In this document: positions 6,720 to 42,687 of the stretch, piece after piece
Position numbering within the stretch: position 1 is the stretch's first letter
How the letters are laid out: the number at the start of each line of letters is the position of its first letter
DNA from: Eledone cirrhosa
Taxonomy: Eukaryota
Assembly (NCBI GenBank): GCA_964016885.1
Contig: OZ024753.1
Coordinates: 2,046,001 to 2,110,000, forward strand
Reading direction: 5' to 3'
DNA: 64,000 nt
Made by a program: the position numbers and the translations under genes
The notes under the pieces: model-generated
Told to the model about the DNA's origin: nothing
What the model saw: only the letters and a program-made list of their open reading frames with translations
The model's database searches: none

Positions 6720-6965
6720 AGAGACGGAGAAGCAGACTGATAGAGAGAGGCGGAGACACAGACTGATAGAGAGAGGCGGAGACACAGACTGATAGAGAGA
6801 GGCGGAGACACAGACTGATAGAGAGAGGCGGAGAAACAGACTGATAGAGAGAGGCGGAGAAACAGACAGAGAGAGGCGGAGAAACAGACAGAGAGAGGCG
6901 GAGAAACAGACAGAGAGAGGCGGAGAAACAGACAGAGAGAGGCGGAGAAACAGACTGATAGAGAG
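6720..6965. repeat. 22/26-bp minisatellite expansion inside one array unit
   Basis: About 10 copies of GAGAGAGGCGGAGA(A/C)ACAGAC(TGAT)A; only 1-3 copies in sister units. Confidence 0.85.
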
Positions 6966-9900: not shown

Positions 9901-10544
9901 GACAACACGAATACTTTAAACGGATTATCACGAAGTTCAGGGTTTAATCTTATCTTTGCTTCGTTATTTTTCCTTATTAATCTTTTATTATAAAGTTGTG
10001 AATGCATCATGGCGAATATAGTCGTGTTTTATTAATTTGATTATTTTGTTGGAGTTTTTTATTACCTGGTAGAGCGCCCACGTTTGAACTTGGTGTCATT
10101 GTGTATGTTTAGAGACTTACCTCCCCATGGACTATAAAATTGATCTGATTTTGCACACCCGCAATTTTATTCCAATGACCAGAGCAGTAGTGCCATCAAT
10201 AATATTGTATGTATTTAAGTTTTAGAGACTAGGTTTGATATGTAGAATTTACTATGATTACTGGATACAGGAAGAGTCATCTCCAAATTGAGAAATTCCT
10301 ACTTTCATAAATTAGTTATTTACATAAGAGAAACCCTATAGTTTACGTTGATTACATAGAAATGATTAAAGGAAAAATAACTTTTTACAGGGACAAATGT
10401 AGGATTAGAACCCAGTTCCTTGCAATTGCAAAGTAACAGATATGTATTTGTGTGTATAAATATACATCATAGTGTAATGAATGCATGAGTATGTATATAT
10501 ATATATATATATATATATAAACACATTATCTCAAGGAACTCTGC

Positions 10545-12598: not shown

Positions 12599-13875
12599 AG
12601 TCCAAATATGTCATCATCTAGAAGGTAAAATTAAAATAATGAGAATATCAATAACTAATTATTTTATGGCTGGCTTACTATTTCAATGAATTAATGAAGA
12701 ATCTTGAGGAATTTATAAAAATGAAAAATCCACACTGTAACATGGTTAGTGCTAGGAAGGGCATCAAGCCGTAGAAACCAGGCCAAAATACAGATCCGTA
12801 TGAGCAAGACATGGTCTTTAGACCTGACTTGTCTCATAACATGACAACCCGTCTAACCCATGTGGAAAATGGAGATTAAATGATAATGATAATTCTATTA
12901 CTAAGATAGTAACTTAACATGATTATATGAATTTACATTGGAAGATATTAATATAAATTGGAACCCTTTAAAATGAGTGTTTTTATTTCATAAGAACCAC
13001 AGCAGGTTACGGTTGAAACCAAAATTGACAAATTTCAATTTAAGTATTTTTTCAAGGTTCACCAATGCCATATCTTCAGCGATTGATTGGCAGAATTGCT
13101 AGAGTGTAGGACAAAATACTTCGCAACATTTAGTTACAGGCCTTTATGTTCTGGGTTTAAATCGCGTCGAGGTTGACTTTGCCTTTCATCTTTTCGGTAA
13201 AATAAAGTACCAATGAAGGGAAAATTTATACAACAACCTCGATTTTAGTTGGAAAAAATATTGTTGTTTTTTTTCGTGCGCTATCAACTAATCTAATCAC
13301 AAAAAAATTCCTGAAAAGACCGAGTAAAACATTTTTCCTACAGAAATTGAGGGGTGGGGCTTCTATAACACGCAATTAAGTACTGGGATCAATTTCATCG
13401 AGCCCCGCCCCAACTAAAATTACGTTGAATAAACATTTCATATAAAATATCTTTCAGTTGTACTAGAACATATATGTAAAAGAACACCCAACAATAAATT
13501 CATAACAAATGTATGTAAATGAACACAATACTGTAATGTATTTAGTTGAATACAATACCAGTTTTTGGTCATCTCTGGTGGCGGTTTTGTAGCAATCTGA
13601 TAATCTTTTTAAATAGAATAATTGATTTAGTGCATTCCTAGAATAACTGCAAATTCCTTCGAGTTAGTTACAACAAAGAATTCACTACGCAACTTGAAGA
13701 AAACGGTAGTCACACGTATGATGGTTTGGTTTTCTATACATAAAAACACCGATTAGTATTCACTAGTTGAAGAATAATAACTTCAAATTATTACTGGAAA
13801 TATAAAAAATAAATATCAAATATCACGCCAAATAAGAAATACTAAAATTAATTTGCTTTTCTCGTTAGAAAAATA

Positions 13876-13885
13876 TCTTACCTGA
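13876..13885 (-). other. PIGP: Candidate splice donor of a non-coding PIGP 5'UTR exon
   Basis: Strong CAG|GTAAGA on - strand upstream of the acceptor at 12617; exon start not determinable. Confidence 0.4.
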
Positions 13886-14783
13886 ACTATAGAAATATAT
13901 TAAAAGTTCTAGTTACGAAAACAAATCAATAAGATGCCATGTTTAGTGTTGACCATTGTGACACAGAATCTTGTACCGAACAACATTTATTTAGTTATTC
14001 ATCATGCATATTGTTTCAATTGATATTTTTTCTAGAAATATTTCCCTTTGGAAAATACTCTCACATTAAAGTGACAATGGGATTAGATGACAATTTTTCT
14101 TGCACATAGGTTTATTTTTAACAATATGTCCACCTCATTTATACAGTTGGATGTTAGCTCTCGTTATTTGTACTGAAATTGTTAGAATTTAATGTAAGAG
14201 TTCTTTCTCGTGAAAGTTTCGAAATCTTGACGGAAAAACTCCCAGTACAAGAACTGCAGCTTCGCAATTATATTTTCAAAACCAGCTGACTATAGCCAAA
14301 GCGGGCTCGTTGCCAGGGGGCGGGGCACTGCTCCCTCCCTTCCTCACTTTTTTTACATCTTGAAACTTACATCAGAGTTATCTCCCATATTACTTGTGAA
14401 ATCTGTTGCTTTTCTCTATTAAATACAAAACCAACACATAAACAAGCTTTCCTAAACTATAACTGATGCATGTACATGCATAGACACAGATACAACTGTT
14501 ACCATACACCTGTGGCTGAACATATACGAGCATTTAAGAGACGCATGCATATACATGGAAATATAAAATGCAATGTATATATATATATTTACGACTTCCA
14601 ATATACAATATTAAATACGTATAATCGAGGAACATTCAGAATCAAGTCAGAATACATAAACACACACATACGTAAGACACATGAGATCAAATACAGGTGA
14701 ACAGCTAATAAATACACACAACGCCAGAATCAGGCTTATTGACAGAAGCAGAACACACGAACATGTACATACACATATTGCAA

Positions 14784-14831
14784 TTTACACTAGTAACGGT
14801 TTAGTTTACATCACGTGACCAAAAATGGCGG
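14784..14831 (+). promoter_or_regulatory. Motif cluster at NPHP4 start: X-box-like TTTACACTAGTAAC, E-box TCACGTGAC, YY1-like AAAATGGCGG overlapping the ATG
   Basis: Motifs at 14784-14797, 14811-14819 and 14822-14831. RFX X-boxes are typical of ciliary genes; the X-box match is imperfect. Confidence 0.5.
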
Positions 14832-14950
14832 GTCCTAATACGCATTGGGTGCCAAAATCTGTAGTACAACCGCCACACGAACGACTTTCAACTGCACAGA
14901 AGCTCTCTACTCCTTTCAAGATCTGTTTAAAAACCTCTGATGGCGTCAAG
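14825..14950 (+). CDS. NPHP4: NPHP4 exon 1a (MAGPNTHW...[15 protein letters not shown])
   Basis: ATG, donor AAG|GTAAGA, phase 0; PPH..ST.F...LK..DG as in the NPHP4 N-terminus. Confidence 0.9.
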
Positions 14951-17900
14951 GTAAGACCTGTTTTAACTAAGCACTCCATGATAGCCCCACAAGAAAAGAA
15001 ATGTCGAAGAGACCCGGTGGTAGAAGCATAGAGTAAACATTTCTTTCTATAGGTTGTGTGAAATAATATTTTCTTTTATCTAGCATCAGAGTTAACCTAT
15101 ATTGGCAATAAATACAAATAATTAATTCAAGCCTTTTTTTTCTCTTTCTACTGGGATTCAACGCACCGATTCCTAATCCAAGAAATATCAAGTCATGTGT
15201 TTTTTCGTCCTAGGTCAGCCCCAATCCATCATACCTACCTAGTTCGATTGATTACTTAAATGTTATATAAAGATCCTTTGATGTAAATATTCGTGCATTT
15301 TTATTATTACATCCATTTTCCTCTGGTGGAGGAACCGCCGAAAACGAGTAATTTACGAACGACGGTTTCGAATAATGCAATTTTGGCTCAAAACACTTTA
15401 AAAAATCACAGGAAAAACAAATTTCACAGTAGAGCATCAGACAGCATGTTTTGCAGCATACAGTTATATCCCTTGACATTTTGAGTTCAAATCTGAGATG
15501 GTTAGCATTCCCTTTTATCCTTACGGGGTCGATAAAATAAAGTACATGTAATGCACTGGATCGATTTAATAGACTTTCCCTTTCCCCAAAATTGTTGGCC
15601 TTGTGCCTAAATCAGAAACCATTATTTCCTTGAACTCAGACAGATCTTGTATCATCAAAATTAATACACAGGAGCAAGTACTAACATATGACCTACAGTT
15701 TACCCTCCTTACCATATTTGTAGTACATCATCATCATCCTCATCATTTACCATCTGCTTTCCCTGCTATCAAGGATTAGATGGATCTACATAGATCAAGT
15801 CAGTATTGAAGCCAGGCTGCTGACCTCCCAGACAGGCTGAGGGTCTGTATCCTGACTACAAACGGTCATATCAAGTGCTGAGGAGAAGTTGTGTCTTTTG
15901 ACACAAACTGAAGGGTTTTCCTAATCCCTTGTTTGGCAAGCTTTCTACAACTGGATACCCTTCCTAACACCAACCACTTTACAGTGTATGCTGAGTGCTT
16001 TACAGTATGTGCGAGGTTAGCTTTGTCTTTCATCCTTACTGCTGTTAAAATAAAGCACCAGTAATGCACTGGAATCAATTTAATTGACTTTTCCCTCCCC
16101 TTCAAATTGCTGGCCTTTTGTCTAAAGTAGAAACAATTATTGATATGTTTGATATTTTAAATGTTTAATTTTTAGTCTCTGTTATAAATTTTATTTGACA
16201 CAAACGAGACCCCACACTGTACCATCCTGTGCTATCTTTAATGTTTTCTTAATGTGAACACTGTGTGGCTATAAAGAAACCAATATTATTATTGTGGATT
16301 GGCAGTATCAGTAGAGCATCGGCGAACATACTTTGCGGCATAGTGTTACGGCCCTTTAAATTCTGAGTTCAAATCTCACTGAGGTTGGCTTTGCCTTTCA
16401 TCCTTATGGGAATGATAAAATAAAGTATCACTAAGGCACGGGGTTCGATTTAACCCTTTAGCATTTAAACTGGCTATATCTGGCTAGAATTCTCTCACCT
16501 CTTTCTGTTTAAACCGGCCACTCATACTGATGTTAAGGTATTGTTCTCAAAATAAATAATATCAAAATCTCCTAGCTTCGATATTATGTGAGATAATTAT
16601 GTGTGGTAAAGCCTTTACTGTGAAAATACAATTGTAAATATAGAGTAATGTAAATGCTAAAGGGTTAATTGACTTTCCCCTCCCCCAAAATTGTTGGCCT
16701 TGTGTCTAAATTGCCTAAATCAGAAACTATTATTATTATGATAAAGTCAGTTGGTAACAGTTTTAGTGGAGCAGAAAAAAAATTACTTACGGTATTTAGT
16801 TACCTTCCTCTTATGTTGTGTGTTTAAATCTGATTATCCGTCTAAAATTGCATTTCAGTGTTTCATGGAAAGGAGTCATTCAGATTTAACATGCATATCT
16901 CATGATTTATAATGCTTATTATCTACAATGTGGTTTGTACAATTTCACAGTTCAACCATACAAACATTGCATTGTTTTTGATTCTTTTTACTGTATAAAT
17001 CCTTATCATTGCAACTTGTACAGACATGATAGAATAACACTTTTCTACATTCCTTCTAAATAACTTCTATCTTAATATCTTATTTCTGAGTACTTTGTCC
17101 ATACATACATTTATGTGTATATGTATATAGTGTTTGTATACACACACACACATGCTGATTGCTATAGATAACAACTGCAAAAATCGGACAAAATAACCCT
17201 ATAGACAGAAAGGATGTGGTCTGAGGCACCTCAATTAAATCAATTGACAAGATCCCACACCTCATTGATTTTTCCATGTTTGCATAGGTTGGACAGGTCC
17301 TTCTCAGCATGGCATCTTTCCACACATCGCAATCCTTTGTCAACGCTTGTGTGAGTCTCAGTGACTTGAGGCCAGCTCTCACAACCTCTACCCAGGTCTT
17401 TCTTGGTTTACCTCTATCACTACTTCCTTCCACTAGCATTTTCTGGCACATCTTTACCCAATGATCATTGTCCATGAACATCACATGTTCAAACTAACGC
17501 AGTCTTCTCTCCTGCACACTACTTCAAATTCCTCTTAAACCCAGCTTCTCCTTCAACTCGTCCAAACTCTGACTGTCTCTCACATTTACATTGCATGTCC
17601 AATGGAGTATTGTTGTTTCATTCTTCTATTCTAGCATTTTGAACAACAGAAATTTAATTTCTTTCTGTTGTGCAGGCAATACTTTCAGATATAGTCCTTC
17701 CCTTCCGTGCAAAACTATGTTTACAGTATTGTGGCAAGCTGACGATTGAAATAATGCTAAAGTTCCTTTTTTCTTGTTAGTTTGTTCTCTCCATCTTTCT
17801 ATCCATCTCTTCGTTTTTCTCCATAAGTCCTGCTCCATTGTTTTTGTCCCCATTTTTCTCCACTCCTTCTCCTCCCATCTCCCTCTATAATCCTCTCATT

Positions 17901-18545
17901 TCTCATCTCATACTTTAGACTCTCTTTCTTCCTCTTTCCGTTCGATTTGCTATACATATAGTATCCGGCTGTTTACGAGTATGTATATATGTATATATAT
18001 GTAAATGGTGTTGGAGGGGGTGGCATCCAGTTGTAGAAACCATGCCCAACATGGTGCACGCGCAGTTCGTTGCAACAATAACACCAAATTTTGGGTTGAC
18101 TCTGAATCAAGTTTATTCTCAGTTCATGTTTGCCACAATCCTGTAATTGATTACCTAATCTTGGCAATTTACACCCGATGACATCGCAAAGCCTTACATC
18201 ATGATTTCATGCTGTAACTAGGCCTTAGAAATACGTATTATAATTTTACAATAAAGAACATTTGGAATCCGGCCTTCTGTTGTCTTTTAAATATTTAACT
18301 CTGTTCATTCACCAACCACGAAATACCACATCTATGATGGATGAATTGCATAATATCAAGTGCTTTAGCTTATTACATTGTGATTTAGTAACCAGAATAA
18401 CCAGATCTATCCATTAGTTAAACCATCCAACATAAATGGTATGTATATATATTATATATGTGTATGTGGAGAGATGCTGTGCTGAATAGGACCCGTCCAA
18501 CCCTTGCAAGCAGGCAAAAGCGAACGTTAAATGATGATGATGATG

Positions 18546-18606
<61 letters not shown>

Positions 18607-18967
18607 CATATATATTTGTATATACACACACATATGTAACTCTCTCTCCCTCTCACTATATATATGTATGTACATATATATATCTGTATATATGTATGAA
18701 TGTATATATATAGATATATATTTGAAGAACTGTAAATATGAAATTCAGGTTAATGATTCAAGAAGCCTTCAGATTCTAATAAAAGACACACACTCTACTA
18801 TATATATTGAGTTCTCACTCCCACCTCATTTATAAACACAACCATCCACCAGTTTCACTCCCTTTATATATGTATATGCTTGTGTATGTGTCTGTATCTG
18901 TGTATTTATATTAGATATATATTACAAAAGCTGTGTATCTGTGAGTGTATGCATGTGTGTGTGTCAG

Positions 18968-19019
<52 letters not shown>

Positions 19020-22000
19020 TATTTATATTCATGTGTCTGTGTTTGTATGTGAGTGTGTGTGTGTGTGTATTTATATTAGATATTATTTATTACTAAAGCT
19101 ATGGTTGTCTTTCATAACTTTGTTGGAATGTCAAAGTTTAACTCAGTCAAGCTTTCAGCTTTGAGAGAGAGAGAGAGAGAGAAGGAGTGTGTGTGTGAGA
19201 CATAGAGAGTTGAAGAGAGGGAGTATTTGTGCATGTGAAACAGAGAGAGAGAAATATTTTTACTGACCATTGACAGCAGTGGGTGGCAGGTTGAGGTGGA
19301 GTGTTAAAACAATTGCTGTTATCATTGTGTATGGTCTGTGAAGGAAATCACTAGGCAGACCATCGACCATCAACCCATCAAGCATTGCCATTGTAATTTA
19401 GTAGTTAGGTCTAAACGCCTGTTGTTTGTCCTTCAAAAATAATGGTGTTTCTGAATTATGAGAGGAGGTTGGCACCACATTGCAAACGGAAAGAGACAAC
19501 AACATCTCACAAGCATAGCTATAGCTGTCCATTACGGATTTCTTTGACATCATGTGAAGGTGTCAATCAGAGCAGAGATGGTGGTGGTGGTAGAAGGAAG
19601 ACAAAGGTATGTAAACATAAATCATATTTTCTTACATAAGTGGAAAGCCATTTTTTTATGAAGAAATGTTTGGTAAATAGAATCAATGCCCAGAATATGT
19701 CTTCATCAGGTGGTGAACTGTCAGTCATTAGAACATTGGACAACATGTTTTGTAGTATTTGTTATATTTGTTTTGACTTTCTGTGCTCTCTGAATTTAGA
19801 TCCTGCAAAGGTTAACTTTGCTTTTTATCCTTTCGAAATTCATAAAAAAATGTACCAGTTAAATATGGCGATCAATTCTTTCTCTATGTCCCTTTCTCAC
19901 TCTCTGTCTCTGGAAGTAATTGGCTGAAAGGCGATGGATTCCTCTAGGTTTAACCCTTTAGCATTCCCATTACTCTATATTTACTATTGTATTTTCACAG
20001 AAAAGGTTTTATTGCACATAATATCGAATCTATGAGATATTGATATTATTTATTTTGGGAACAATACCTTAATGTCGGTTAATACCTGTTACAACCAGTT
20101 TGAACAGAAAGAGGTGAGAATTCCGACCAGATATGGCTGATTTAAGTGCTAAAGGATTAAAGTGCCTAAGCCACACTGTGTGTTATGATTGCACCACTAC
20201 AATTCCATCAGTAATTACTGGTCCATATATATATATCTTCATCATCATCAAAATATTACTCTGTTCTTATCAAGCTAAATACCATACATCCCTATCTTGC
20301 TCTATATTGTCTTGTTCTTATATATTCACAGTATTTTAAGTTTGTCAATTATTTATATTATTCATCCACTAAGGGACGAAGGGTGGTGAATTGGTGGAAT
20401 TGTTAGAGTGTTGGACAACATGCTTTGTAGTATTTATTTACTGCTGCTTATGTTCTGAATTCAAATCCTACTGAGGTCAGTTTTGCCTTTCATCCTTCTT
20501 GGGTCGATAAAATGTTTTGTTTAGGTAGTTTGCAGTGTTTTTTTGTTTTTTTTGCTGGCATGGGTTTGACAGGACTTTTCGAGATAATGTTTTAACAGCC
20601 ACATACTCTTCCTGACACCAACCATTTTAGTCACTTCTTATGATACTCAGGTATACAGTATACCTATTCTAAACTGGATGCACAATGCCCATAGGTAGTT
20701 TTATTATTTTTATAAATTATCTATTTCATTCTATTATGTATTATTAATTATTATTATTCATTAGAACATTGTACAAAATGTTTTGTAACATTTAGTTATG
20801 ATCCTTTATGTTCTGAGTTCCAATCCAGCTAAGTTCAACTTCGCTTTTCATCCTTTTGGAGTCAATAAAATAAAGTACCAGTCATATACTATGGTCGATG
20901 TAATCAGTTTTCTTTTCCCTTCCCTTCAAATTGTTCGCCTTGTCCCTAAGTTAGAAATCAATATTTAAATGTGACCATTTATCATCAAATTCCAATGACA
21001 TTCATTTTGCCTTTTATCCTTTTGATGTTAATCACATAAGTACCAGTTACATACTGGGATTGAAATAAGCAACTCATCCTTCCTTCTAAATGTGTGCCTA
21101 TGCAAGGAATTCTTATTATCAAGGTAGTGGGTTGGTAGAATTGCTAGATGTTGGACAAATCCTTAGTTTGGCATATTGTTAAGTCTCTTTAGTTCAAATC
21201 CTGCTGAGGTAAGCTTTTGCATTTCATCTTTATGGGATTGATAAAATAAGTACCTGTAATGAGCTGGGGTCGAGTTAATCAGCTTCCCCCATCTCTTCAA
21301 ATTTCTGGCCTTGTGCCAAAAGTAGAAACAAATATTTGTTGTCGCTCTTTAGGTTCTGATTTCAAATCCCACTAAAGTAAACTTTGCCTGTCATCCTTCC
21401 CTAATGAGGGACGGTGGTGGTTGTAGAGGTTGGTAAAATAAAGTACCATGGGGAGGAGGTCAGTAAAATAATGTAGCAGTCAAGTACAAGTATCGATGTA
21501 ATCGATTTCCTCCTCCCCAACAAAGGACCAGACATGTATCTAAAGTAGAAACAATCATTATTATGGAAGTAGCAGGATGGGTGTGATGTGCAAGGTAATG
21601 GTACACCTATTACAGAATGCACCCGGTACTTCTGGTTTCATCTGAACTAATTTTCAGTTGGTCAGTTTATCATGCAGTTGTTGTCATAGCAACCATCACA
21701 TGGCTACTAACTGACCAACTATTTTTCAGTTTTACAGATGCCAGTTTCTCTCAGATAGAAAGATTAATAAAGACAAAAGAAAAAATATTAAAAACTGATC
21801 TATGTTCTGTTCTTTGATATTGTTGTTCTGCACAGAAGCTTTCAAAACAGGTTTGTGACCATAAATGGCTAACAAATTGTTGGTGGTGGTGGTGGTGGTG
21901 GTGGTGGTGGTGGTGGTATTGGCGACAGTGGTGGTGGTGGTGGTATTGGCGGTGGTATTGGTGGTGGTGGTGGTGGTGGTGGTATTGGTGGTGGTGGTGG

Positions 22001-25000: not shown

Positions 25001-28000
25001 CCAACACTTTTAGTCATTTCTTACATGTAAATATATTATGTAACATATTCTAAACCAGATAATTACAGCCAAATATATAGAATTGATTAATAATTAATTC
25101 AGCTTACAGCCTCCAGTCCAGCTATTTGGTGATTATTCATTTATTAAACTTAATTCTACATCAAACTCACCATCTTCATCATCATCATCGTCTAACATGT
25201 ATTTTCAATGCTTGCACTGGCTAGACAGTTGTCACGTGCTGAGGTCAGACTGGTCAAGGGACTAAGTCATGGTGGTATGCTTTGATTCTATGCCTGGATG
25301 CCTTTCCTAACACCAACCACTTTATAGCATGTACAGAGATCATGGTTTCTACAGCTGGATGTACTTCCTAACATCATCCACTTAACAGCCTGCACTTACA
25401 CACTCACACGCACACCCCCACATACACACACACACACACACACACACGCACATGCACACACACACACACACACACATATATATAAATTCATGTAAAAAGG
25501 GCCTGTTTGATGAAGAATATCAAATATGAATAAAAAAAGTGGAGGTGCACAAGACAAAGACAATAGAAAATGAACAGTCACTTTTCTTCAGTCAACCTTT
25601 ATATATATATCTCCATATATAGTGTATATCTATCTATGTATTATATCTATCTATCTATATATGTATATATATATGTATCTATATATGTATATATATATAG
25701 ATACATATATAGATAGAGGTGCTACACCCCAGTAAATTCGCTGAAAGGTGGGTGAATGTGGCGAAAATGGCCCGAGTGAGTGGGCCTTCTCTGTATATAA
25801 ACCTGTCGGTTGAGGAAGATAACCAGAGGGAAGACAGGAACACCTACAAAACGTGTTCCTGGTGTTGAGGGTTGTTCTATCCACGGGGTGTAAAACAACC
25901 CTGCAGTAACGTTCCTCCCGATTGGGGATTTCAATTGTTATTTTATTATATATAGTTTATTGTTATTTATTAATTTTAAAGTTATATGATTTTTATGTAA
26001 AACCCCCACCGTCACGTCTTGTAATGTCCCATTTTTGTATGCCCCTGTGGCAAATAAAGAAATATATATATATAGATGATGATGATGATATAGATATATA
26101 TGTATATGTATATATATATAATGGATTGTCTTAGTCTGTAAAGACTAAGACAATCCATACCAACATGAAAAACTGGCCATAAAATCTTGATATATACACT
26201 ATTGTAAGGCGATCCCCACCTATAAGGTGGTAGTGTTGGTGCCATGAAGAAAGGTACCCAAGCAACAATGTAAAGCAGTAGTGATGGTACCTCAACAAAA
26301 GCACCCAATCTACCTTGTGATAGTAGCAGTGCTGGTGTCATAAGAAAATACTCTCAGTTCTTGCTGTAAAGTGGTTGGCATTAGGAAGGGCATCCAGCTG
26401 TAGATAAAAAGCTAAAAATCTAAGCTAAAAATGGAATGTTCTGGCAAGACGTAGTCACCTGAGCACTCTAATCTCAGTACATGATAGCCTAAGTCATGCA
26501 AACATGGAAATTTTCCATTAAATGATAATAGTAATGATGATGATGATTATGATGATGGTGTGAATAGCTAACTTTGTCTTTCCTTCTATTCAAAATCACT
26601 AACATTAATATCAATAGAAGTCTATTAATTAACCATTCTGTTTTACTTTTAATATATTTCAGGTGTCAGATTCAAAAGAAGTATATCAACTTTATGTCAG
26701 CCTTTATGATGCTGTTTACCATTGTTACTTTGGTTGCCAGTGGCAGAGTTCAGGTATCACCTGCTCTGCTGCGAAAGGAAACCATACAAAACTTACCTTT
26801 AATCAGGTGAATTGTTTATCACATCCTTTTTCTTTTTTTTTTCTTTTACAAAAATCATAAAACACTTGTTTTGTTTCTTTTACAAGATACAGACCTGTTA
26901 TGGGGGGAATGCCTTTTTGATAGAGAGCTTTGAATTGAGCACAGCAATCTAGTTGTAGAAAAATGGCAATCTAGTTAACTCTTTCATGACCTTGTTTCTA
27001 ATGAAATACACTGTATTTCAATTAATTGATGGAGAATTTGGAGGGATTAACTAAAACCATTAATCATTTCATTATTGTTGGATTAAGGGTGGGGCATTTC
27101 AACTCTTCTTATTAATAACTGCATTGTTTCTTTCCAGGGACTATGTTGAAAAATAAACCTCATTTGGTCAATCCATGAGAGTATCTTGGTCAACCTATGA
27201 ACCTTTCTGCCAACCCTCATACTTTATTACTCTAGACTTTTCCATTTCCCCTCACCTTATATCTATCTTTCTTTCTCTCTAGGTAATCTACATGCACACC
27301 ACTTTGAAAGCTCCAAGTGTTGTACTTGTTGTAGAGCTTGTTAGTCAAACAAAATATTCTGATGGCACCAACAAAACAAAGTCACTTGGCTGGGGGATCA
27401 TCAGACCCTTTGCTGTGGATGCTGAACATTCAAATACTTTACGAAATGACCAGAGTACTCTTAAAAAGTAAGTAGACCCTTGGTAATGTTTCTGTGTAAC
27501 TTTCTCTCTTTCCCACATTCAGTTGATTAAACTTTCATTTTTCATCTGTTGGTTGGTGATAGGAAGTGCATCCATCTGTAGAAACCATGTTGATAAAGGC
27601 TCGAGAGGACTCTCAATTTGTGTCATGGGCACATCAACCTCTCTAGTGTTGATAGTCCACATGAGAAACACTCCCAGTACACTTTGTAAAGTGGTTGGTA
27701 AAAGGGAAGGCATCCAACCATAGGAAATCTGCCAAACAAAGGGCCAGAAGAACTCTTTAGCTATGTCACAAACATGACGACCTTCTCCATGCTGGTGCCG
27801 AATAAAATGCATTCAGCAGAGTGAATGGACATATGTAAGTGAGATGCTAGCCCCCGGCTTGCCTGAGCACCAGTTACAGTGTAGGAACATAAGTGAGTGA
27901 GAAGCAGGCACCTAGCCCATCTCAGAGTTCAGTAGCTCTGTTTTGAGTATTGACTTGGTTTGTGATGATCCAGCCAACCCTTGTTAGCAGGGAAAATGGA

Positions 28001-31000
28001 TGGTAAAGGACGGCATCTACACCGTATAGCACATGTAGAGATAAAATTTGTCTATTCTATGAGATACTATATCAGATTGTATGCCTTTGATATTATACTG
28101 TCTGTTTAACCATTGACAACCACAAGAAGACCAATAACAAAAGGGATTATAAACATACTACTGTGTAACCTGCTACTGTGATTATGTTCATGCTCATAAT
28201 TGTTTTTTACAGAGTGCAGCTATATAAGGGTACACCCAGGGCACTCTATCTTGTAGATGAACCAATTGAAAGTAAGTGATTTTTATCTCTTTCTATGTAG
28301 TGTATGTATGTTTTTGTATTTACCTGCTTATATACAGTCATACAAATATGATTATAAAGAAATGAAGTGAGTATGCTTTGTTGGGTGTGTAATGTTAGCA
28401 TGGATGACTGGCACAAAATAAGCAAACTGACAGAAAAACTCTATATAAGGGGGTGCATATGCAGTATACAAAAAAGAAGACTGTGATGCTCTGGACATGT
28501 GATATGTATTGAAGATGACAGCTGTATAAAGAAATGCAGAGAAATCTCAATGGATGGAACTCCGGGGAGGTATATTACCAGGAAGACGTGGGTTGATGTA
28601 GTGAAGACAAACCTTATGACTAGTATGATATAACCCTATTGCTGTTATTGTTGACAACACAGGTCCAGCAGTATTATATAACCCTTTGCTGTCATTATTG
28701 GGGGCACAGATCTAATAGTTTCTAATATAACATTTCTGTTCTAATGACACTCTTCATATTTTAGACTGCGAACACTTAAAAGCAATTAATGGCCGGTACC
28801 TGACCTGTTCCTTAAGCATTCACCAGCCTCTGTTTAAAATACTTCATTTTCTACCTGAGAATGTATTCTTTGGACGAACAGACAATGTGCCAGGATTACA
28901 GACTATTGGCAGAACAGGTTAGTGATTCTTCTGTGAAGATTCTTTTGTTCTTTCTTTCTATTCTCTTTCCCTACTTTCTCCCTCTACTTCACTCTCTCTT
29001 TCTATCCAGTCTTTTTTATGTTACTCCCTTCTTTTCAGTTGATCATTTCTTACTCTATATTCATCTATTCATGACGTTAATATCACACATATATTCATCT
29101 ATTCATGACGTTAATATCACAAATATATTCTCAGAGCAGATCAGCAGCAAACAGCAAAGGTTTTAAAGCCATATTCCCCTGGCAATTCTTTAACCCTTTC
29201 ATTATGGTATTTCTAATGGAAAACACTGTCTATAATTTTCAAAAAATTTTGAAAATAAACAAGAATTTAAAGGGATTTAGTAATCTAACTAACTTTCTAA
29301 TTATTAAGCTGATGTTTAGAACATAAGTTAACATAGGTTCCCTCATAAAATTGTGATGAAAGGGTTTTAAATGAATAAGCATTCAGTATACTGTGTATAG
29401 TTGAGGGCCAGAGTCACAGTAAAATGTTCCCTGTACTTGCTGTAAAGTGGTTTACGTTAAGAAGTGCATCCAGCCATAACAACTAAGCCAAAAAACAGCA
29501 TACCTAACCAGTCTAACCTCAGTATATAACAAACCATCCAACATATGGGAGCATGGGAAAAGACATTAAATGGTAATAATAATGATGATAATGAGGAGGA
29601 ACTCACAGTAGAGGTAGACCAAGAAAGACCTTGGCAGAGGTGGTAAGAGCTGATCTCAAACTGCTGAGACTCACAGGAGATCACAAAGAAATGTCGCCAG
29701 TGGAGAGATGCTGTGCTGAAAAGGACCTGTCTAACCCAAGCAAGCATGGAAAAACAGACGTAAAAAAATGATTAGGATGAGGATGATGACATTAAAATAT
29801 ACAGTTTTGTATTGTAGAGCCAAGAACAGTTTCAATCGTATTCTACATTCATTCTTAGGAAGGGCATCCAGCCGTAGTAATCTAGTCAGAAACAGTCCTA
29901 TATGAGCAAAACACGGTTACCTGACTCAACTTGCCTCAAATGGGACAACCTGCCTAACCCATGCTAGCTTGGAAAATGAACGTTAAACGATGATGATGAT
30001 GATTCTTTATGATTTTCTTCTCTTTATCTTTACATTTCAACTAGTTGATCCATTTCATAAGCCAAAGTTATCTCCAGTATTAATGTGCCAGCTGAATAAC
30101 ATTTTAGTAACATTGCCACCAAATATTGATCGATTTGAGGAGGAACTCTGCCAACAACTCAGTGAAGATTATCTCAACAACATCTCAGATGCTGATAGCC
30201 TTACCAACATCTCAATTAACAATCTGGTTACAATTACAGAACGGCGACTCAAGGTAGGAATATGATCTTGATCAAGATAACTGACTATGGTGGCTGTGAT
30301 GGTATGATGGTTTAGTGGTTGTTGTGGTAGTGTGGTGGTTATGGTAGTGTGGTGGTTGTTGTGACGGTGGTGACTGTGACGATATGATGGTGTAGTTGGT
30401 GTTGTGGTAGTGTGGTGGCTGTGATGGTATGATGGTGTAGTGGTTACCGTGGTACTGTGGTGGCTATGGTAGTTGTGATGGTAGGATTGTTTAGTGGTTG
30501 TTGTGGTAGTATGGTGGTTATGGTATTGTGGTGGTTGTTGTGACAGTGGTGACTGTGGCGATATGATGGTGTAGTTGGTGTTGTGGTAGTGTGGTGGCTG
30601 TGATGGTATGATGGTGTAGTGGTTACTGTGGTACTGTGGTGGCTATGGTAGTTGTGATGGTAGGATTGTTTAGTGGTTGTTGTGGTAGTGTGGTGGTTAT
30701 GGTAGTGTGGTGGTTGTCGTGACGGTGGTGACTGTGACGATATGGTGGTGTAGTTGGTGTTGTGGTAGTGTGGTGGCTGTGATGGTATGATGGTGTAGTA
30801 GTTACCGTGGTACTGTGGTGGCTATGGTAGTTGTGATGGTAGGATGGTTTAGTGGTTGTTGTGGTAGTGTGGTGGTTATGGTAGTGTGGTGGTTGTCGTG
30901 ACGGTGGTGACTGTGACGATATGATGGTGTAGTTGGTGTTGTGGTAGTGTGGTGGCTGTGATGGTATGATGGTGTAGTAGTTACTGTGGTACTGTGGTGG

Positions 31001-34000
31001 CTATGGTAGTTGTGATGGTAGGATGGTTTAGTGGTTGTTGTGGTAGTGTGGTGATGATTGTGGTAGTGGTAGTGTGGTGTTGTGGTGGTGATTGTGGTAG
31101 TGTGGTTGTAGTAGTGTGGTGGTGATAGTGTGGGGGTTATGTTAGTGTGGTGGTGGTAGTGAAGTGGTGGTTGTGTTAGTGTGGTGGTGGTAGTGTGGTG
31201 GTGGTTGTGAAGTGGTGGTTGTGTTAGTGTGGTGGTGGTAGTGTGGTGGTGGTAGTAGTGTGGTGGTTCTGAAGACAGTATAACTCAATGTTTTTGTGAT
31301 TGAGATGCGATGAGTATTGAAGGGTATTGGAGATTGATCAGTAACTGTAAAAGTATGATGGCTGGTTGTCAAGGGATGCTGATTGTCAAAGAATATTGGT
31401 TGTCAAAGAAATTTGGTTGCCAAGGGATGTTGGTTGTCCAGGAATGCTGGTTGTCAAGGAAATTTTATTTTAAGTGGTAGCATTCCTGCAATAATTAATT
31501 TTCTTTAGACATTAAAAAACATTACACATGACAAAAAACGTACATTACTAAAAAATCCCATAAGTTATAAAATAAATAGGTTGGGTTCTCAATATGAAAA
31601 CTAAATGACTAATTCTGTTTTTTTTTTTTTAAATCAACAGAGTCAACCTAGAAAAATTACCGATATTCCACCTACCCCCGCTTATTTCACCCCCCCCCCC
31701 ATTATTTGGGACCTAAAAGTACACATTTATTTAACAAGTCAGATGTTGAGTTGCTCAAATAACTGTACACATCATAGAAAAACCCATGGAAAATCTATTA
31801 TCAGCTACATTATTGTAACTCCTGTTGGAGTTGTAGGGGGCGCTGTCGTGACATATGGCACGTCTTGGTACACTTTAAACCTTGTAGAGCCCTTCTTCTC
31901 TCCTGGTCTGAACATAGCCAATTTCTTCCTGAGAAGGTGAGAGAGAGAGAGAGAGCACCTCAGAATTGTAATGGTACTTTTTTTCATCGCTCTCAAAAGG
32001 ATGAAAGGCAAAGTTGACCCCCGCTGGGTTTGAATTCAGAGAACACAGAGAACCAGAATAAATACCATAAAACATTTTATCTGCTGTTCTAATGACTCTG
32101 CTTGTTTGCTGCCTAATAAAAATATATTCTGGGGGTTGTGCCGGATTTAGGACAAATGAGGCCTTGTGCTAGTTAAGTTATGAGGCCTCTTACTTGGGCC
32201 CTGAAGGAGGTAAAACATTTTTGGGGCAAGAAGATGCTCTCCCTCCTCTCCCCCCAGTCAACGGGGCCCTGTGCTTAAGCAAACCTAATCACAATGGTAA
32301 ATCCAGCACTGTCTGGGGGTTGAATCTATTTACCAAAAAGTTTTCTGCTTATGATTAAATCTGCCAATTCACCACCTACTTTCTACATTATTATTGATGT
32401 TAAAAAAAACTCAATAGCCATTACAACAGCTAACACTGTTCTTTTGTTTGATTGTTGTTTTTTACATAATCTTTTCTTTTATGTTTTTTCTTCATTTATT
32501 GAACATCTGACTCAATCAATAAAATATTGATATCTTCTGAGTCAGTGATACAGCATAATATCTTAGGCAATTATTATCTATCTTTAATGTAAGTCACTCA
32601 CAGCACTGCAACCTGGTCAACTGAATATTGCTGTTGTTGCTTCCTTTTCTTTATACAATAAAAAAGAAGGAAATATATTTAGTTGTGATCTGGTATCTTA
32701 ATGTCTTTAATGCTGATTCATTTTTACCCCTTACACTAGATCTTTATTACTTCTCACAACATTTTTCCAGCTCTAATGGTCTTCATCTAATTTTTTATAA
32801 GCTATTTCATAGCAGCTGACTGTATTCACAGTTATTTTCTGTGTCTGAGCTCTCTGCATCTTATACATTTATTTCATTGCTGCTTAGTAAGTTCAAAAAT
32901 TCAAGTTTCATACACATTGTAAAAACTAATGTTTTATTAAAAGGCTACCATGATGCAAATTGGTCATTAATTGTTAAAATATAGTGATAACAAAGATGTT
33001 AGAATGTTACCATGGAGATTTTTAATGGTTTATATATTTATCTTGAAATATAAAGGATTAAAAAACTCCAAAGTAACATCCCAACATCTTTGTTATCACT
33101 ATATTTTACCCAGTTGATGTCCCATTTGCCTTTTTAATAAAACACTATGTTCTACACTTAACACAATGTTTTGGGCAAACTACAACACCCTCTTTCAATG
33201 TAGTTTTTATATGTAAACAATCTATTTTAGAACCATTAAGCAATAGGGAGTCTTTTTAAATGTTGTTTGACTATGAAAATTAGTCTAATAAGTTGGGCAT
33301 GTCAAACATTGTTAATGCTACCAACTTTCAAATTCAGTAATTTTTATAATTTTTCTTCTCTTTTGGTAGCTTGCTGTACATAATGGTTGGTGCTATTGTG
33401 GTAAGGAAGAAATCATACATTTGGATATGGAGTACAATAATAGTTCAAATGGCCCATCTCCAAGTCCTGTTCCCAGACCAAGAAGCAGCTACCGAAGGAA
33501 ATATTCTGTGTCTTCAAACGGGTATTTAGGAAATTATATTTCTATAATTCTAAGAGATTCATAGAGCTTTTTTATTTAAAAAAAAATGAGTTAATCAAAG
33601 TAGATAGAGTGATGTCCATTAACTATTGCAGATTTTCTTGGACTGCTGAGGTTAATGAGGTAGATGTTGAACTTGAACATTGGTAGGTTGGTCTCACTAG
33701 TACTGCTTTCACAATAACATTCACCCAGTACACTCTGTAAAGTGGTTGGTATTAGGAGGGGTATCCAGTTGTATAAACCATGCTATAAAAATGGTAGAGA
33801 AGACTCTTTAATCACATAAAAAACGAGACAACCTCTCTAGCGCTGGTAGCATAGTAAAGTGCGCCCAGTACACTCTGCAAAGTGATTGGCATTAGGAAGG
33901 GTATCCAGTTGTAGAAACCATGCTATAAAAATGGTAGAAAGGACTCTTCAATCATATTAAGATTGAGACAACCTCTCTAGTGCTGATGGCACAGTAAAGT

Positions 34001-37000
34001 GTGCCCAGTGCACTCTGTATAAAGTGGTTGACATTAGGGAGGTTATCCAGTTGTATAAACCATGCTATAAAAATGGTAGAGATGACTTTTTAATTGCATA
34101 AAAAAAAATGAGACCCCCCCCTATGTAGTGCTGGTGATTCTTTAATCACATCAAGGTTGAAACAACTTCTGTAGTGCTGGTGTTGCAGCCAAATGTCCCT
34201 GTCAGAAGCATATATAATAAATTTGGCTTCTAAACAGGGTTTGGATTTTTGCTCATTTCTCAGACATAAAATAAAGTGGTTGGTTTATATTCAGATCGGC
34301 TTATATTTGAGTATAAACAGTAATTACTAATTCTGTATTTTTATTTCTATTTGAATCCTTTTTTCAGGTCTTCAAATGCTGTTGGATTGGCGCTAAGATC
34401 TCCATGTTATGTTAAAGATCTCTTTGACTCACCCGACTGCACCGTGGTTATGTCTTTGGAGTATGTCATTTCTGAACCAATGAGGGAAGAATACATGAAA
34501 GTAAGACTGAAATTAATCCAAAATAGCATACTTAAAGAATCTGTGAACCCTCCTCCTCCTTGTCCTCCTTCTTTTATGACTCTGTTTTAAAAACAATCTT
34601 CAGTTTGTTGTTCTCATGTTTTGAACACAAAGTATTCAGAATCTAAGAAAACAATTTTTGTAAAGACAATGAAAAAATTTAGAGAGAATTAAGAAAAATT
34701 CTCTGCTAAAAGGAATAAGCACCTAATAATTATTCCCTGGCCTATATTTTACTGCTGCCTGTGTAAATATTAACTTGTCCTGTTTGCAGAGAACACACAG
34801 AATGTGATTGATATGCAGGAGAAGGGAATATAACAGCCTACAATTTCCTGTATTGTTTATGATTGCCTTTAGCTGTTAGAAAAGACAGATCTAAAACTTG
34901 CTCTCTCTCTCCTTCACCACCTCTCTCTCTATCTCTCTTTTTCTCTCCATTTCTCTGTGCATATGAAATATGACACATGTTTAGTTAGGGAAATAGCACC
35001 TCAGAATATGACAGTCATGATTGTGGGACATAAAGTTAATATTTAGGTTTTCATGCACTGTTCTTTACATATAATTAATGCCATATTTTCAAATTCAAAA
35101 GTGTTATTACATAGATATTTTTCCATTATAATCATTGTCATCGTCATTGTTGTTGTCTTTGTCATTGTTTGTATGTTGACTTTCCCATGTTGGCATGGGT
35201 TGGATGGGACTTTTGAGGCAATGTTTTATAGCTAGATGCCCTTCCTGACACCAACCATTTTAATTGCTTCATATGACATGCAAGGATATGGTGTAACTAT
35301 TCTAAACTGGACACACATGTTTACAGAACATATCATATCAATACAGTTGTTATTAATTTTTCTTCTTATTGGTTAGCTTTGCTTTTCATCCTTATGCGGT
35401 CGATAAAATAAAGTACCTGTCACGCACTGGGGTTGAATTAATTGACTTTCCCCTCCCCCACAAAATTGTTGGCCTTGTGCCTAAATCCAGTCCTCTAACC
35501 ACTAAGCCATTTGTCTTTAGTAGAGTCTATTCTATGGCAAACATTTGGGCCAAGTCTCCAGTTTAAAAATACTTTCATCATTCTCACTAGTCTTGAAGAC
35601 CTCAAAATGGGTCATGGATACTGTTCTTCCTCCTGTCTAAGTAAAAAAAAGAAAAGAATATATCTATATACAGCTTATACATAATTACAATTATAGCACT
35701 TTTCTTTTGCTTCCAGTTTGTTCGATCAATACCATGGGCCTTCAAAAGAGTTATCCTTCTCCGATGGTGCATATGGAAACCATTTGATTTATCAGCACCT
35801 GGTCAAGAAATGGTTGGAGATGTTTATAGAATCCCATTTATTGCTGGACCCAGTCGAAATCCAGATGAAGTATTTGTGTACAAGGGAACACCAACAGATA
35901 TGTATGAGGAACACTTAGCTCGAATGGCTCAAGGGAATATCCAGTTCTATGCAGTATTGCATAAACAAGTATGTACTTCCAAATTACAGGTTGAAAGTGG
36001 TGGATTGGCAAAATTATTTGAGCTTTGGTAAAAAAATGTCTTATGGAGTTGATAAATAAAAAAACAGTAATGCACTAGGATTGATTTAATCGACTTTCCC
36101 CTCCCCCAAAATTGTTGGCCTTGTGCCTAAATCAGAAACAATTATTTTGCCATTTTTTGCCCTAAACTTCACTGGTTTAGAAAATCTCTATTTAGGCACC
36201 TGTCCAAATCATGCTGGATTAATGATGTTCAACCTTTACTATGTAATTTATTATATAGGCTCTCTTTGGAAATGGATCAACATTTTAAAATATAACTTTC
36301 TCTGCATATAGCTTACTTTGATAATTATGTTTGATTTTTACGTTGTTTCTGTTCGAGTTACATTTTTTTCCCTTTTTTTTGTTTTTGTTTTTTCTTCTTC
36401 AATATAGGACCAAAGCGAAAGTCCTGCTAATGTTGAAGACCTTCAGGTGAAGATGCAGAATGCAGCCATGCCACCTTTACCTTTACCTGTACAGTCTCCC
36501 ATGTAAATAACTGAATGTTATATATTTTATTACAATAACATGGGTGGTTTATAATTTATAATTAGCACTTTTGTCTGTCGATGACCAAAATATTTAGCTT
36601 CCAAATTGTCCGATCTGCATGAAGGCCACCTCATCACTGAAGTAGTGGTAGCAACATAAAATATGACAAATGGTTCATTTAATTCCTCTTGTGAGTACTG
36701 TTAAAACAGCTCTTGTATCTTATCTAGATGTCAATAGATCTTATCATTCACAGATGTCTACTTCTGATTAGGAAAGTCAATAATTTACTCAACCAAATCA
36801 TAACAGATTTATCACCATCACCGTTTAATAACCATTTTCCCAGATAGCAAGGGTAGGATGGGTTGTCAGCAGATCAAATCACTATTCACTTACATACAGT
36901 GGCCCACAGCTTACATGAAATCCCATGCACTACCAACACTAGCACTAGGGAGGTTGCCATGTCTTTGACACAGCTGAAAATTTTCATTCTTTGTTATTGT

Positions 37001-37941
37001 GGTTCAATAAGATTGCTTTTCATTGAGAAATTAGTTACAAAATGCAGACCTGCCAACCTCTAAAAACCCAAACAGGGAGTATCATGAAAAAAAGTGCCCT
37101 AAAACGAAGAGAAATGAGGCAAAATGGGGAGGTTTTACATAATGAAAGCTATACCCATTTTCACAAGTGAAGACATCTTTTCACGCTCCGCAAAGTGGGT
37201 AGAAGATCTCTCCGTCGGACGGGGAGAGTTGACAGGTCTGAAAATGTCTGAGCTGAACAATACAATTCTTTTATTTACTTTAGACAAATGTCTCCGCCAA
37301 AGAGAGCTGTCAACCAGTCTATGCAAAACCAACAAGCCAACATGGCGTATTCAAGCTATCAGCCCAAGTCTACCATTTCCCAGATGTCAATTCCATATAG
37401 CATACCACCTGTTTCACCTGTGCCAGCATATCAGCAGCAATTGACTCAAAATCCTGTTGCACCAGCAGCAGTTTATCATCAGCATCAGCAGCAGCATCAG
37501 CAGCAAATGGTACCATCACATCATCAGCAGCAAATGGCACCATCACAGCATCAGCAGCAAATGGCACCATCACATCATCAGCAGCAAATGGCACCATCAC
37601 ACCATCAGCAGCAAATGGCACCATCACATCATCAGCAGCAAATGGCACCATCACAGCATCAGCAGCAAATGGCACCATCACATCATCAGCAGCAAATGGC
37701 ACCATCACATCATCAGCAGCAAATGGCACCATCACATCATCAGCAGCAAATGGCACCATCACAGCATCAGCAGCAAATGGCACCATCACACCATCAGCAG
37801 CAAATGGCTAGGGCTGATGGTCAAGTCACTGAAGTAACTAAGGTTGGTCAACATAACACCTATGCATGTATACACACACACAAACACACTCATTATACAC
37901 TTATGCACGAGTATGTATTCATGTTCACATATATGCACACA

Positions 37942-37989
<48 letters not shown>

Positions 37990-38964
37990 CACGAGCATGT
38001 ATTCCTGTTCACACACACACACACACACATACACATGCATTAGCATATATTCACATTCACACACATGCACACATACACGCACACACATAGATACTCTTTG
38101 ACATGGTCACTTTCCATGCATAGGTTGGACATATATATATATATATATCATGGAGGCACATGGCTTAGTGGTTAGAGCATTGGGCTTGCAATCGAAAGGT
38201 TGTGAGTTCAATTCTCAAACTGGGTGATGTGTTGTTTCCTTGAGCAAGACACTTTATTTCACATTGCTCCAATTTACTCAGCTGTAGAAATGAGATGATA
38301 GGGACTGATGTCCCTATCATTCCACTGCAAAGTGGTCGTGGAGGTGCCACGGCAAAAAAGCACCCAGCACTCACTGTAAATGAGGTTGGTGTTAGGAAGG
38401 GCATCCAGCTGTAGAAATCAAGCCAGAATCAGTTCCCGTCCCACCCTTGCAAGCAGGGAAAAAGCGGACGTAAAGTGATGATCATATACAACATGTTGCA
38501 CAATTCATATTTATCATAGATGATGTTTCTTCTTTTGACCTGTTTGTACATCCAGATGTATTGGGCCCTTATGAACATAGACCCCATTAGTTGTGTGAGG
38601 AGTTTAATGCAGTTCTTCTATTATTTTGTTTGTTAACAGCAATTTTCTTCCCTAACAACTGCTGTCGCTGCTCTTCCTGATGAAGCAGAATTCTTACATC
38701 AGATGCCAACTTCTAGACACAATCCTATCTTAGCACAGGTACCACACACAACAAGGTGAGCTGGAGTGTTAGAGTGGAGGAGTAGTCGGGGTAATGGAGT
38801 AAGAAATATCATCATTAGCCCCCCCCCCCCAACCATCATCATCATCATCATCATCAGCCCTCCTCACCACTATCATCATATTCATCATCGTCATTATCAT
38901 CATCATCATCAGCCCCCTCCTCTACTATCATCAACATCATCATCAGCTCCCCTATCTACTATCG

Positions 38965-39000
<36 letters not shown>

Positions 39001-39533
39001 GCCCCCTCCCCACTCCCGAAAAAAAAAAAAATTAAAATCAAACAACAAAGAATGATAAAGAACAAACAAACAAAAAACTAAACTAGTAAAAACAGGTTTA
39101 AAAACTAACTCTTGGTTTCTTTTATTGGTATTTTAGTTGCAAGAGTTTATCTCGGAGTACCTACAATCTCTTGTTCAATACTGGCTTCCCTACAATCTTA
39201 GATCGAAATGGTGACCCTGCAGAAGTTATCAACCCAGAGAGATCTGATGTAGATACTGATTTCAGCTGTAGTTACCGAGATCCACTTTCTAGTAATGAAA
39301 TCATCTTTCAGTTTTTAGCTGTCAACAGGTAAATCACAAATTGTTGTTGTTACTCTTCTCTTGTTAGTGCTGGTTGTGAGTCTCATAGTTTGTTGCTATT
39401 GTTGTCAGTCCTGGACTTAACTGTAAGCCAAATAAGCTATAGCTTAGGGCCAAACACCCTCGGGGTCCTCATTTAAAAAAATATATTTTCATTTTATCAT
39501 TGTTAGTTTTTATTCTTTAACACTAAATCATCA

Positions 39534-39572
<39 letters not shown>

Positions 39573-42500: not shown

Positions 42501-42615
42501 TAGAAAGCTCAAATAAGTGAATAAGCAGCAAATAAAAAGTTGAGAAATATAGAAGAAGCCACTTGGTGTGATATTTTAAATAGAATAATTTCAGCTGAAT
42601 ATTTCCCTAAATACA

Positions 42616-42687
<72 letters not shown>

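What the first reader, a model, noticed from the sequence alone, without database searches (positions are those of the whole stretch)
19442..19606. Duplicated, diverged alternative first exon of NPHP4
Seen: a second ATG-initiated exon ~4.5 kb into intron 1 encodes APH..R...[14 protein letters not shown], aligning with exon 1a PPHER...[14 protein letters not shown] (6/14 identical plus conservative pairs in the last block). It ends in a phase-0 donor like exon 1a and has an upstream in-frame stop, so the two are mutually exclusive. Knowledge: this segment begins the N-terminal C2-type domain of NPHP4. Inference: an old exon duplication kept at protein level gives two promoters and N-termini, possibly for different cilium types. 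I know of no description of this for NPHP4.
Basis: partly seen in the sequence, partly recalled or inferred. Interest (0 to 1): 0.7.

Follow-up and report, generated by a model that had tools for sequence, protein, structure and literature searches.

The report
Duplicated first exon of octopus NPHP4
Two octopus-group species carry a second, diverged start exon in the cilia gene NPHP4, likely an old copy of the first, which is predicted to swap the first strand and a surface loop of the protein's first C2 domain and would give a second version of this ciliary gate protein.

Summary
An ATG-started 55-codon frame at 19442-19606 lies 4.5 kb into intron 1 of an octopod NPHP4 gene and ends at the strongest donor-like site of that intron. 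Its orthologue begins Octopus sinensis RefSeq isoform X1 (60% identical); isoform X2 begins with exon 1a, and the two are identical from exon 2 on. Homology to exon 1a is weak pairwise (no BLASTP alignment) but supported by a cephalopod-free profile (single-comparison E 2e-4; 3 of 5000 shuffles). A split-domain fold puts 1b residues 26-43 in the strand-1 slot of the first C2 domain (0.78 against best control 0.05). Exon 1b adds a longer, basic, glycine-rich loop. No RNA junction was seen here, so promoter, tissue and function are inferred, and the age of the duplication is unresolved. This is a new member of a known class, N-terminal substitution by a tandem duplicated exon; human dysferlin C2A/C2Av1 is the closest parallel. 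The isoform is already in an automated annotation; I found no paper on it.

The parts
13201..15600 (.). CpG-rich block around exon 1a, likely the main unmethylated promoter region
   Evidence: CpG observed/expected 0.76-0.95 in four 600-base bins against 0.40 for the window and mostly 0-0.6 in the gene body; promoter role inferred
14825..14950 (+). NPHP4 exon 1a, 42 codons from ATG, phase-0 donor at 14951
   Evidence: 37 of 42 identical to O. sinensis X2 N-terminus; profile E 2e-8
19412..19414 (+). last in-frame stop before the 1b ATG
19442..19606 (+). NPHP4 exon 1b, alternative first coding exon, 55 codons from ATG
   Evidence: orthologue begins O. sinensis RefSeq X1; A at -3 and G at +4 of the ATG
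19442..19489 (+). 1b residues 1-16: conserved basic N-terminal arm
   Evidence: 13 of 16 identical to O. sinensis; not in the confident interface of the fold
19517..19570 (+). 1b residues 26-43: predicted first beta-strand of the N-terminal C2 domain
   Evidence: aligns on the conserved strand; sits between strands 86-97 and 181-195 in the split fold
19562..19606 (+). 1b residues 41-55: Gly- and Lys/Arg-rich extension of the loop between strands 1 and 2
   Evidence: 15 residues here, 24 in O. sinensis, 2 in exon 1a
19607..19612 (+). 1b splice donor, phase 0
   Evidence: score 10.3, the only site at 10 or more in intron 1
26663..26806 (+). shared exon 2 (48 codons), acceptor for both first exons
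   Evidence: 35 of 48 identical to O. sinensis
27283..28917 (+). exons 3-5 (27283-27467, 28213-28271, 28765-28917): rest of the first C2 domain
   Evidence: exons 2-9 give 429 codons without a stop
30045..53409 (+). further NPHP4 exons, to residue 1144 of the 1493-residue O. sinensis protein; the rest is not found in the window
   Evidence: tblastn

Best explanation
Octopod NPHP4 has two alternative first coding exons, and exon 1b is likely an old tandem copy of exon 1 that is likely transcribed from its own, tissue-restricted start inside intron 1 and spliced to exon 2. Both isoforms are predicted to fold the same eight-stranded C2 domain, because each exon supplies strand 1 with the same hydrophobic pattern. 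They differ in the N-terminal arm and in the loop after strand 1: 9 residues in the 1a form against 22 (this species) or 31 (O. sinensis) in the 1b form, with net charge of the exon +8 and +11 against +4 and +3. That loop is one of the membrane-facing loops of C2 domains (established knowledge, recalled), so the 1b form would bind acidic lipid or a transition-zone partner differently while the other 1451 residues stay the same. Shown: anatomy, conservation, annotation in a second species. Computed: homology, strand placement. Inferred: own promoter (about 0.65), tissue restriction, changed binding (about 0.5).
For: O. sinensis X1 (P0008, XP_036363682.1) starts with a 1b orthologue, X2 (P0005) with 1a; identical over 1451 residues after exon 1. 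Conservation is in blocks (13 of 16 and 12 of 19 identical) with a diverged linker, and length differences keep the frame. Cephalopod-free profile of 15 N-termini: 1b E 2e-4 (window) and 5e-4 (O. sinensis) as single comparisons; 3 of 5000 and 4 of 5000 shuffles reach the score; profile-profile E 2.6e-4, 0 of 300 column shuffles; against 1a plus P0009 E 2.8e-3, 0 of 300. A model of a lizard NPHP4 N-terminus puts the exon-1 segment at a helix and strand 1 of an eight-stranded sandwich whose best matches are C2 domains. Split-domain fold, no alignments used: score 0.78, best of 3 controls 0.05, runs agree in at least 76% of contacts, partner pLDDT 51-52; the mark was reached by 51 of 78 solved and 2 of 108 mismatched microbial pairs, and 39 of 65 solved and 2 of 126 unrelated eukaryotic pairs; 1b residues 26-43 lie antiparallel between strands 86-97 and 181-195. 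Strong donor and good ATG context. 1a lies in a CpG-rich block, 1b in CpG-poor gene body.
Against: No transcript of this species was seen; the only expression support is a predicted RefSeq model of another species whose evidence fields I could not view. In a blind scan of all 2050 open segments of the window 1b ranks third at E 0.74, behind a repeat-derived chance hit, and a vertebrate-only profile misses it (E 15). Only 3 of 15 outgroup N-termini gave window 1b a pairwise score reached by at most 1 of 2000 shuffles. Halves of a split domain tend to pass the fold test, peptides were not calibrated, and the controls were unrelated proteins, not strand-prone peptides. A 1b start was seen in 1 of the 4 named octopod species in the clusters read (O. 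vulgaris record has 1a; O. bimaculoides records start inside exon 2; Argonauta is partial) and in 0 of 3 full-length sequences of the outside cephalopod cluster. No promoter motif beyond chance was found before 1b.
Confidence: 0.7

Rival explanations
1. One promoter: a non-coding leader upstream of 1a is spliced either to 1a or to an acceptor just before 1b, so the two copies are chosen by splicing, not by promoter. The proteins are the same as in the best explanation.
For: A donor-like site at 14696 (score 8.3) and an acceptor-like site at 14794 (5.5) lie upstream of the 1a ATG; acceptor-like sites at 19280 (7.2) and 19402 (6.4) lie before 1b; nine ATGs in 14300-14824 hint at a spliced or short leader. 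1b has no CpG-rich block.
Against: These acceptors are at or below the low end of the gene's 19 real acceptors (6.8-14.2), and sites of 6.4 or more occur 25 times in intron 1.
Confidence: 0.17
2. 1b is a real alternative first exon but arose from intron sequence or another source; the likeness to exon 1 is chance or convergence on a strand that fits the slot.
For: No BLASTP or DNA alignment between 1a and 1b; blind rank 3 of 2050 at E 0.74; non-homologous alternative N-termini occur in vertebrate NPHP4 annotations (P0013, P0057).
Against: Two separate motifs match in order and spacing, the donor is in the same phase, and shuffle tests give 0 of 300, 3 of 5000 and 4 of 5000; window 1b scores against oyster and snail N-termini with 0 and 1 of 2000 shuffles.
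Confidence: 0.07
3. 1b is a decaying duplicate, still spliced at low level but without a selected protein role.
For: It changes faster than 1a (60% against 88-90%) and than exon 2 (73%), and its loop varies by 9 residues between two species; long branch in the exon tree.
Against: Start codon, frame, phase and two blocks are kept between species whose NPHP4 is only about 84% identical; the donor is the strongest in the intron.
Confidence: 0.06

Closest known systems
N-terminal substitutions by tandem duplicated exons (Martinez Gomez et al. 2021, PMC8373072; 2022, PMC9741552)
   Same: Two homologous 5' coding exons, used one at a time, give homologous N-termini on one shared body; 39 of 236 human events are of this type and are ascribed to alternative promoters; core residues kept, disordered parts not (passages read).
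   Different: NPHP4 has 0 hits in that paper's text and supplementary table; this case is in a mollusc lineage and is so diverged that pairwise BLAST misses it.
Human dysferlin (DYSF) C2A / C2Av1
   Same: Catalogued as an N-terminal tandem-exon event (supplement row 68); the variant keeps the C2 structure where sequence is not conserved and does not bind via calcium (PMC3898210 passage); its structure 4iqh is among the fold matches of the NPHP4 model (rank 46).
   Different: Unrelated gene family and independent origin; the 30-residue dysferlin exon appears to cover strand 1, the loop and strand 2 (my reading of the listed peptide), 1b covers an N-terminal arm, strand 1 and part of the loop. 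Calcium binding by NPHP4 was not tested. The primary paper (Fuson 2014) was not held; I saw only its title and others' summaries.
O. sinensis nephrocystin-4-like isoforms X1 and X2 (XP_036363682.1, XP_029643356.1)
   Same: The same two N-termini on one body.
   Different: An automated annotation with no statement of homology, structure or tissue; its 1b exon is 10 residues longer.

Membership tests
NPHP4 (nephrocystin-4) gene | Colinear similarity to named NPHP4 proteins over many exons | tested here: met
   21 colinear tblastn pieces over residues 1-1144 of P0005; exon 3 finds three octopod proteins, two named nephrocystin-4; tree groups the window with octopod NPHP4 at 100/100
NPHP4 (nephrocystin-4) gene | N-terminal C2-type domain | tested here: met
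   Model of lizard homologue P0083 is an eight-stranded sandwich matching Aida, DOCK and PI3K C2 domains; the local Pfam copy gave no NPHP4 family
Tandem duplicated exon, N-terminal substitution | Two 5' coding exons in tandem in one gene, joined to the same next exon in the same phase | tested here: met
   O. sinensis X1 and X2 identical after exon 1
Tandem duplicated exon, N-terminal substitution | The two exons are homologous | tested here: met
   Met by profile and shuffle tests; not met by pairwise BLASTP or DNA or in a blind window scan (E 0.74)
Tandem duplicated exon, N-terminal substitution | Used one at a time at protein level | tested here: met
   In-frame stops before the 1b ATG and no acceptor scoring above 1 from 19403 to the donor; separate RefSeq isoforms
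Tandem duplicated exon, N-terminal substitution | Both forms transcribed and spliced | tested here: inconclusive
   Predicted RefSeq models in O. sinensis only; no junction read seen for this species
Tandem duplicated exon, N-terminal substitution | Separate promoters | not testable with these tools
   Needs capped 5' ends; CpG contrast and motif scans do not decide
Tandem duplicated exon, N-terminal substitution | Kept across species under purifying selection | tested here: inconclusive
   Kept in 2 octopods with block conservation; no orthologous DNA for dN/dS
Dysferlin C2A/C2Av1-like switch (works like, not member) | Isoforms differ in lipid or calcium binding | not testable with these tools
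   Needs a binding assay

The most novel reading that the evidence does not exclude
Octopods build two kinds of ciliary gate from one NPHP4 gene: the 1b isoform, with a long polybasic loop and its own conserved N-terminal arm, docks the NPHP module on a different membrane or partner in one cilium type (sperm flagellum or a sensory cilium), an invertebrate parallel to the dysferlin C2A switch in a transition-zone protein.
Probability: 0.2. Interest if true: 0.7.

Novelty: new member of a known kind. Interest (0 to 1): 0.43.

Why it matters
NPHP4 is a transition-zone protein mutated in nephronophthisis and Senior-Loken syndrome, and its C2 domains are thought to mediate membrane and partner binding (review PMC12109206, passages); no solved structure was matched. 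A natural swap of only the N-terminal arm, strand 1 and one loop, kept in two octopods, points to which surface of the first C2 domain can be tuned and gives a ready pair of proteins for a binding test. It also shows that such events can diverge past pairwise detection, so catalogues built on BLAST would miss them. The mechanism class itself is known, and the case is limited to one animal lineage.

Tried and rejected
No whole genome is held, so other cephalopod loci and dN/dS were out of reach. The look-up of sequencing runs: no RNA holder listed; the three holders cover exon and intron flanks in one contig and show no joints. Exon 1b alone found nothing in the protein collection (7 candidates, none scored), Pfam or the Atlas. 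The HMMER search of 50% representatives gave 12 hits, all matched in exons 2-3, none 1b-type. PDB sequence search: 0 hits. Metagenome scan: 1 locus of 594 stretches, an off-frame chance match in a GC-rich, bacterial-looking gene; rejected. A possible third exon at +21467 (second in the profile scan, E 0.089) lies in sequence resembling the dispersed repeat seen throughout intron 1 (by eye); rejected. RFX X-box scan (consensus recalled): three-mismatch sites near both exons are among 107 in the window; the one-mismatch site at 21680 is 1 of 2 against 0.87 expected; not used. Dating: exon tree of 46 columns joins 1a with the outside cephalopod P0009 at 82/62, but the AU test rejects neither an octopod-only duplication (p 0.15) nor a cephalopod clade (p 0.19); unresolved. 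The intact 1b-form domain was not folded as one chain, and no matching split fold was run for 1a, so the two forms were not compared by structure. Three look-ups of earlier scan findings returned nothing. Literature: 10 searches; by their listings none describes alternative first exons of cephalopod NPHP4; subscription papers and bioRxiv supplements are not covered.

Full report
Observation. Window 19442-19606 is an ATG-started frame of 55 codons ending at a phase-0 GT; exon 1a (14825-14950, 42 codons) ends the same way, and exon 2 opens at 26663. The last in-frame stop before the 1b ATG is at 19412-19414. On a matrix from 16 donors of this gene the 1b donor scores 10.3 (1a 10.5) and is the only site at 10 or more in 15000-26600; both ATGs have A at -3 and G at +4. 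No acceptor scoring above 1 lies between 19403 and the donor, so 1a cannot be read through into 1b. The exon is single-copy in the window and is covered without differences by one contig in each of three runs of one sample, possibly the window's source.

The gene. Exon 3 retrieves proteins of Octopus bimaculoides, O. vulgaris (both named nephrocystin-4) and Argonauta hians. O. sinensis NPHP4 maps colinearly in 21 pieces up to residue 1144 at 53409. A tree of exons 2-9 puts the window among octopods (100/100), outside the three Octopus species, 84% identical to the nearest; the unnamed P0009 is sister to all octopods and is taken as another cephalopod (inference).

Independent support for 1b. 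The cluster look-up shows two O. sinensis RefSeq isoforms: X2 (P0005, 1493 aa) starts with 1a, X1 (P0008, 1516 aa) starts with a 65-residue 1b orthologue, and both are identical over the remaining 1451 residues. The X1 N-terminus hits the window only at 19442-19594 (31 of 52 identical, E 2e-14; next hit E 0.52). Conservation starts at the methionine and falls in two blocks (13 of 16; 12 of 19) around a diverged linker; length changes keep the frame. 1a is 37 of 42 and exon 2 is 35 of 48 identical, so 1b changes faster. That such RefSeq isoforms usually rest on aligned transcripts is recalled knowledge; I could not see the record's evidence. Against: among the clusters read, 1 of 4 named octopod species shows a 1b start, and 0 of 3 full-length sequences of the P0009 cluster.

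Is it a duplicate? Pairwise, barely: no BLASTP alignment, 20 of 2000 shuffles reach the 1a/1b score, no DNA likeness. A vertebrate-only profile finds 1a (E 3.5e-4) and misses 1b (E 15). A broader cephalopod-free profile (15 N-termini including snail and oyster) gives 1a E 2e-8 and 1b E 2e-4 and 5e-4 as single comparisons, but 1b ranks only third of 2050 segments in a blind scan (E 0.74). Because 1b is singled out beforehand by the O. sinensis isoform, the single comparison is the fair one; shuffles agree (3 and 4 of 5000; profile-profile E 2.6e-4, 0 of 300). In the full-length alignment the 1b block falls on the conserved strand ending in the near-invariant glycine. A frog isoform pair (P0011, P0038) differs by a segment that matches octopod exon 2 at both ends, so the intron after exon 1 looks ancient and exon 1 is a unit that can be copied (inference). 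The date is open: the exon tree favours 1a with P0009 (82/62), which would make the copy older than octopods, but an octopod-only duplication is not rejected (p-AU 0.15).

Structure. AlphaFold2 on a lizard NPHP4 N-terminus (P0083, 26-row alignment, mean pLDDT 78) gives a short helix, a linker and eight strands, the first at 31-41 within the exon-1 segment; the best PDB matches are C2 domains of Aida, DOCK8 and PI3K, with dysferlin C2Av1 at rank 46. Folding the O. sinensis domain without exon 1 (43-216) together with the window's 1b peptide, with no alignment used, scored 0.78 against a best control of 0.05; runs agree in at least 76% of contacts, partner pLDDT 51-52; the mark was reached by 51 of 78 solved and 2 of 108 mismatched microbial pairs and by 39 of 65 and 2 of 126 eukaryotic pairs. 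Residues 26-43 lie antiparallel between strands 86-97 and 181-195, the strand-1 slot. Split halves pass easily, peptides are uncalibrated and C2 folds are abundant among solved structures, so this shows fit, not function. Residues 1-25 are not placed with confidence.

What differs. Between the conserved glycine and the tyrosine that opens strand 2 there are 9 residues in the 1a form, 22 in this 1b form and 31 in O. sinensis X1; oyster has 12 and a frog 15 (counted). K+R minus D+E per exon is +4 and +3 for 1a, +8 and +11 for 1b. In C2 domains this loop is one of the membrane-facing loops (recalled). 1a lies in a CpG-rich block (0.76-0.95), 1b in CpG-poor gene body (0-0.3), which fits a broad promoter for 1a and a restricted one for 1b, but equally a shared leader spliced to either exon: a donor-like site at 14696 and acceptor-like sites at 14794, 19280 and 19402 exist, though weak and common.

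Mechanism. Most likely an old tandem copy of exon 1 is used from its own start in some tissue and yields an NPHP4 with an intact first C2 domain but a different arm and a longer basic loop, changing lipid or partner binding at the ciliary base. Anatomy and cross-species conservation are shown; homology and strand placement are computed; promoter, tissue and binding change are inferred.

Known systems. N-terminal substitution by tandem duplicated exons is catalogued: 39 of 236 human events (PMC8373072, passages; PMC9741552, passages). DYSF is one; NPHP4 has no hit in the supplementary table. Dysferlin C2Av1 keeps the fold and does not bind via calcium (PMC3898210, passage; bioRxiv 2022.01.18.476802, passage). 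NPHP4 background is from a review (PMC12109206, passages). PMC7140416 (passages) added nothing. Fuson 2014 was seen as a title only. Ten searches (listings only, apart from the six papers named) showed no paper on cephalopod NPHP4 first exons; closed journals are not covered.

Verdict. Real, conserved, a new member of a known kind; already present as an unremarked automated isoform. Interest 0.43; 0.7 if the isoform proves specific to a cilium type with changed binding (probability about 0.2).

Noticed in passing
window 148-10174: 18 copies of a roughly 96-base core (81-100% alike) in units of mostly 600-700 bases; the first five are on one strand and the other thirteen on the opposite strand, flipping near 2.8 kb where GC skew also turns. 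CpG is not depleted (0.7-1.4). No Rfam family at gathering score.
   Followed up: partly
window 21680-21693: Near-perfect palindromic RFX X-box-like site in unique sequence of intron 1, 2 kb after exon 1b, followed by an acceptor-like and a donor-like site with no long open frame; 2 such sites in the window against 0.87 expected. Could be an enhancer or a start for forms that begin in exon 2, as the O. bimaculoides records do.
   Followed up: partly
window 21881-22459: About 575 bases of GGT/TGG-type repeat in intron 1 with strong GC skew.
   Followed up: no
window 38159-38222, 53838-53895, 59007-59076: Three weak tRNA matches (31-33 bits), probably heads of tRNA-derived SINEs.
   Followed up: no
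P0013, P0057, P0038 (vertebrate NPHP4 records): Annotated vertebrate isoforms also replace or skip the first coding exons, but with N-termini that do not look homologous and would break the first C2 domain (by eye).
   Followed up: no
window 53410-64000: No further NPHP4 exon is found in the last 10.6 kb; residues 1145-1493 presumably lie beyond the window. 56-58 kb is very AT-rich (GC 0.17-0.24).
   Followed up: no
L001 3196-3300: Off-frame chance match to exon 1b in a GC-rich bacterial-looking gene.
   Followed up: yes
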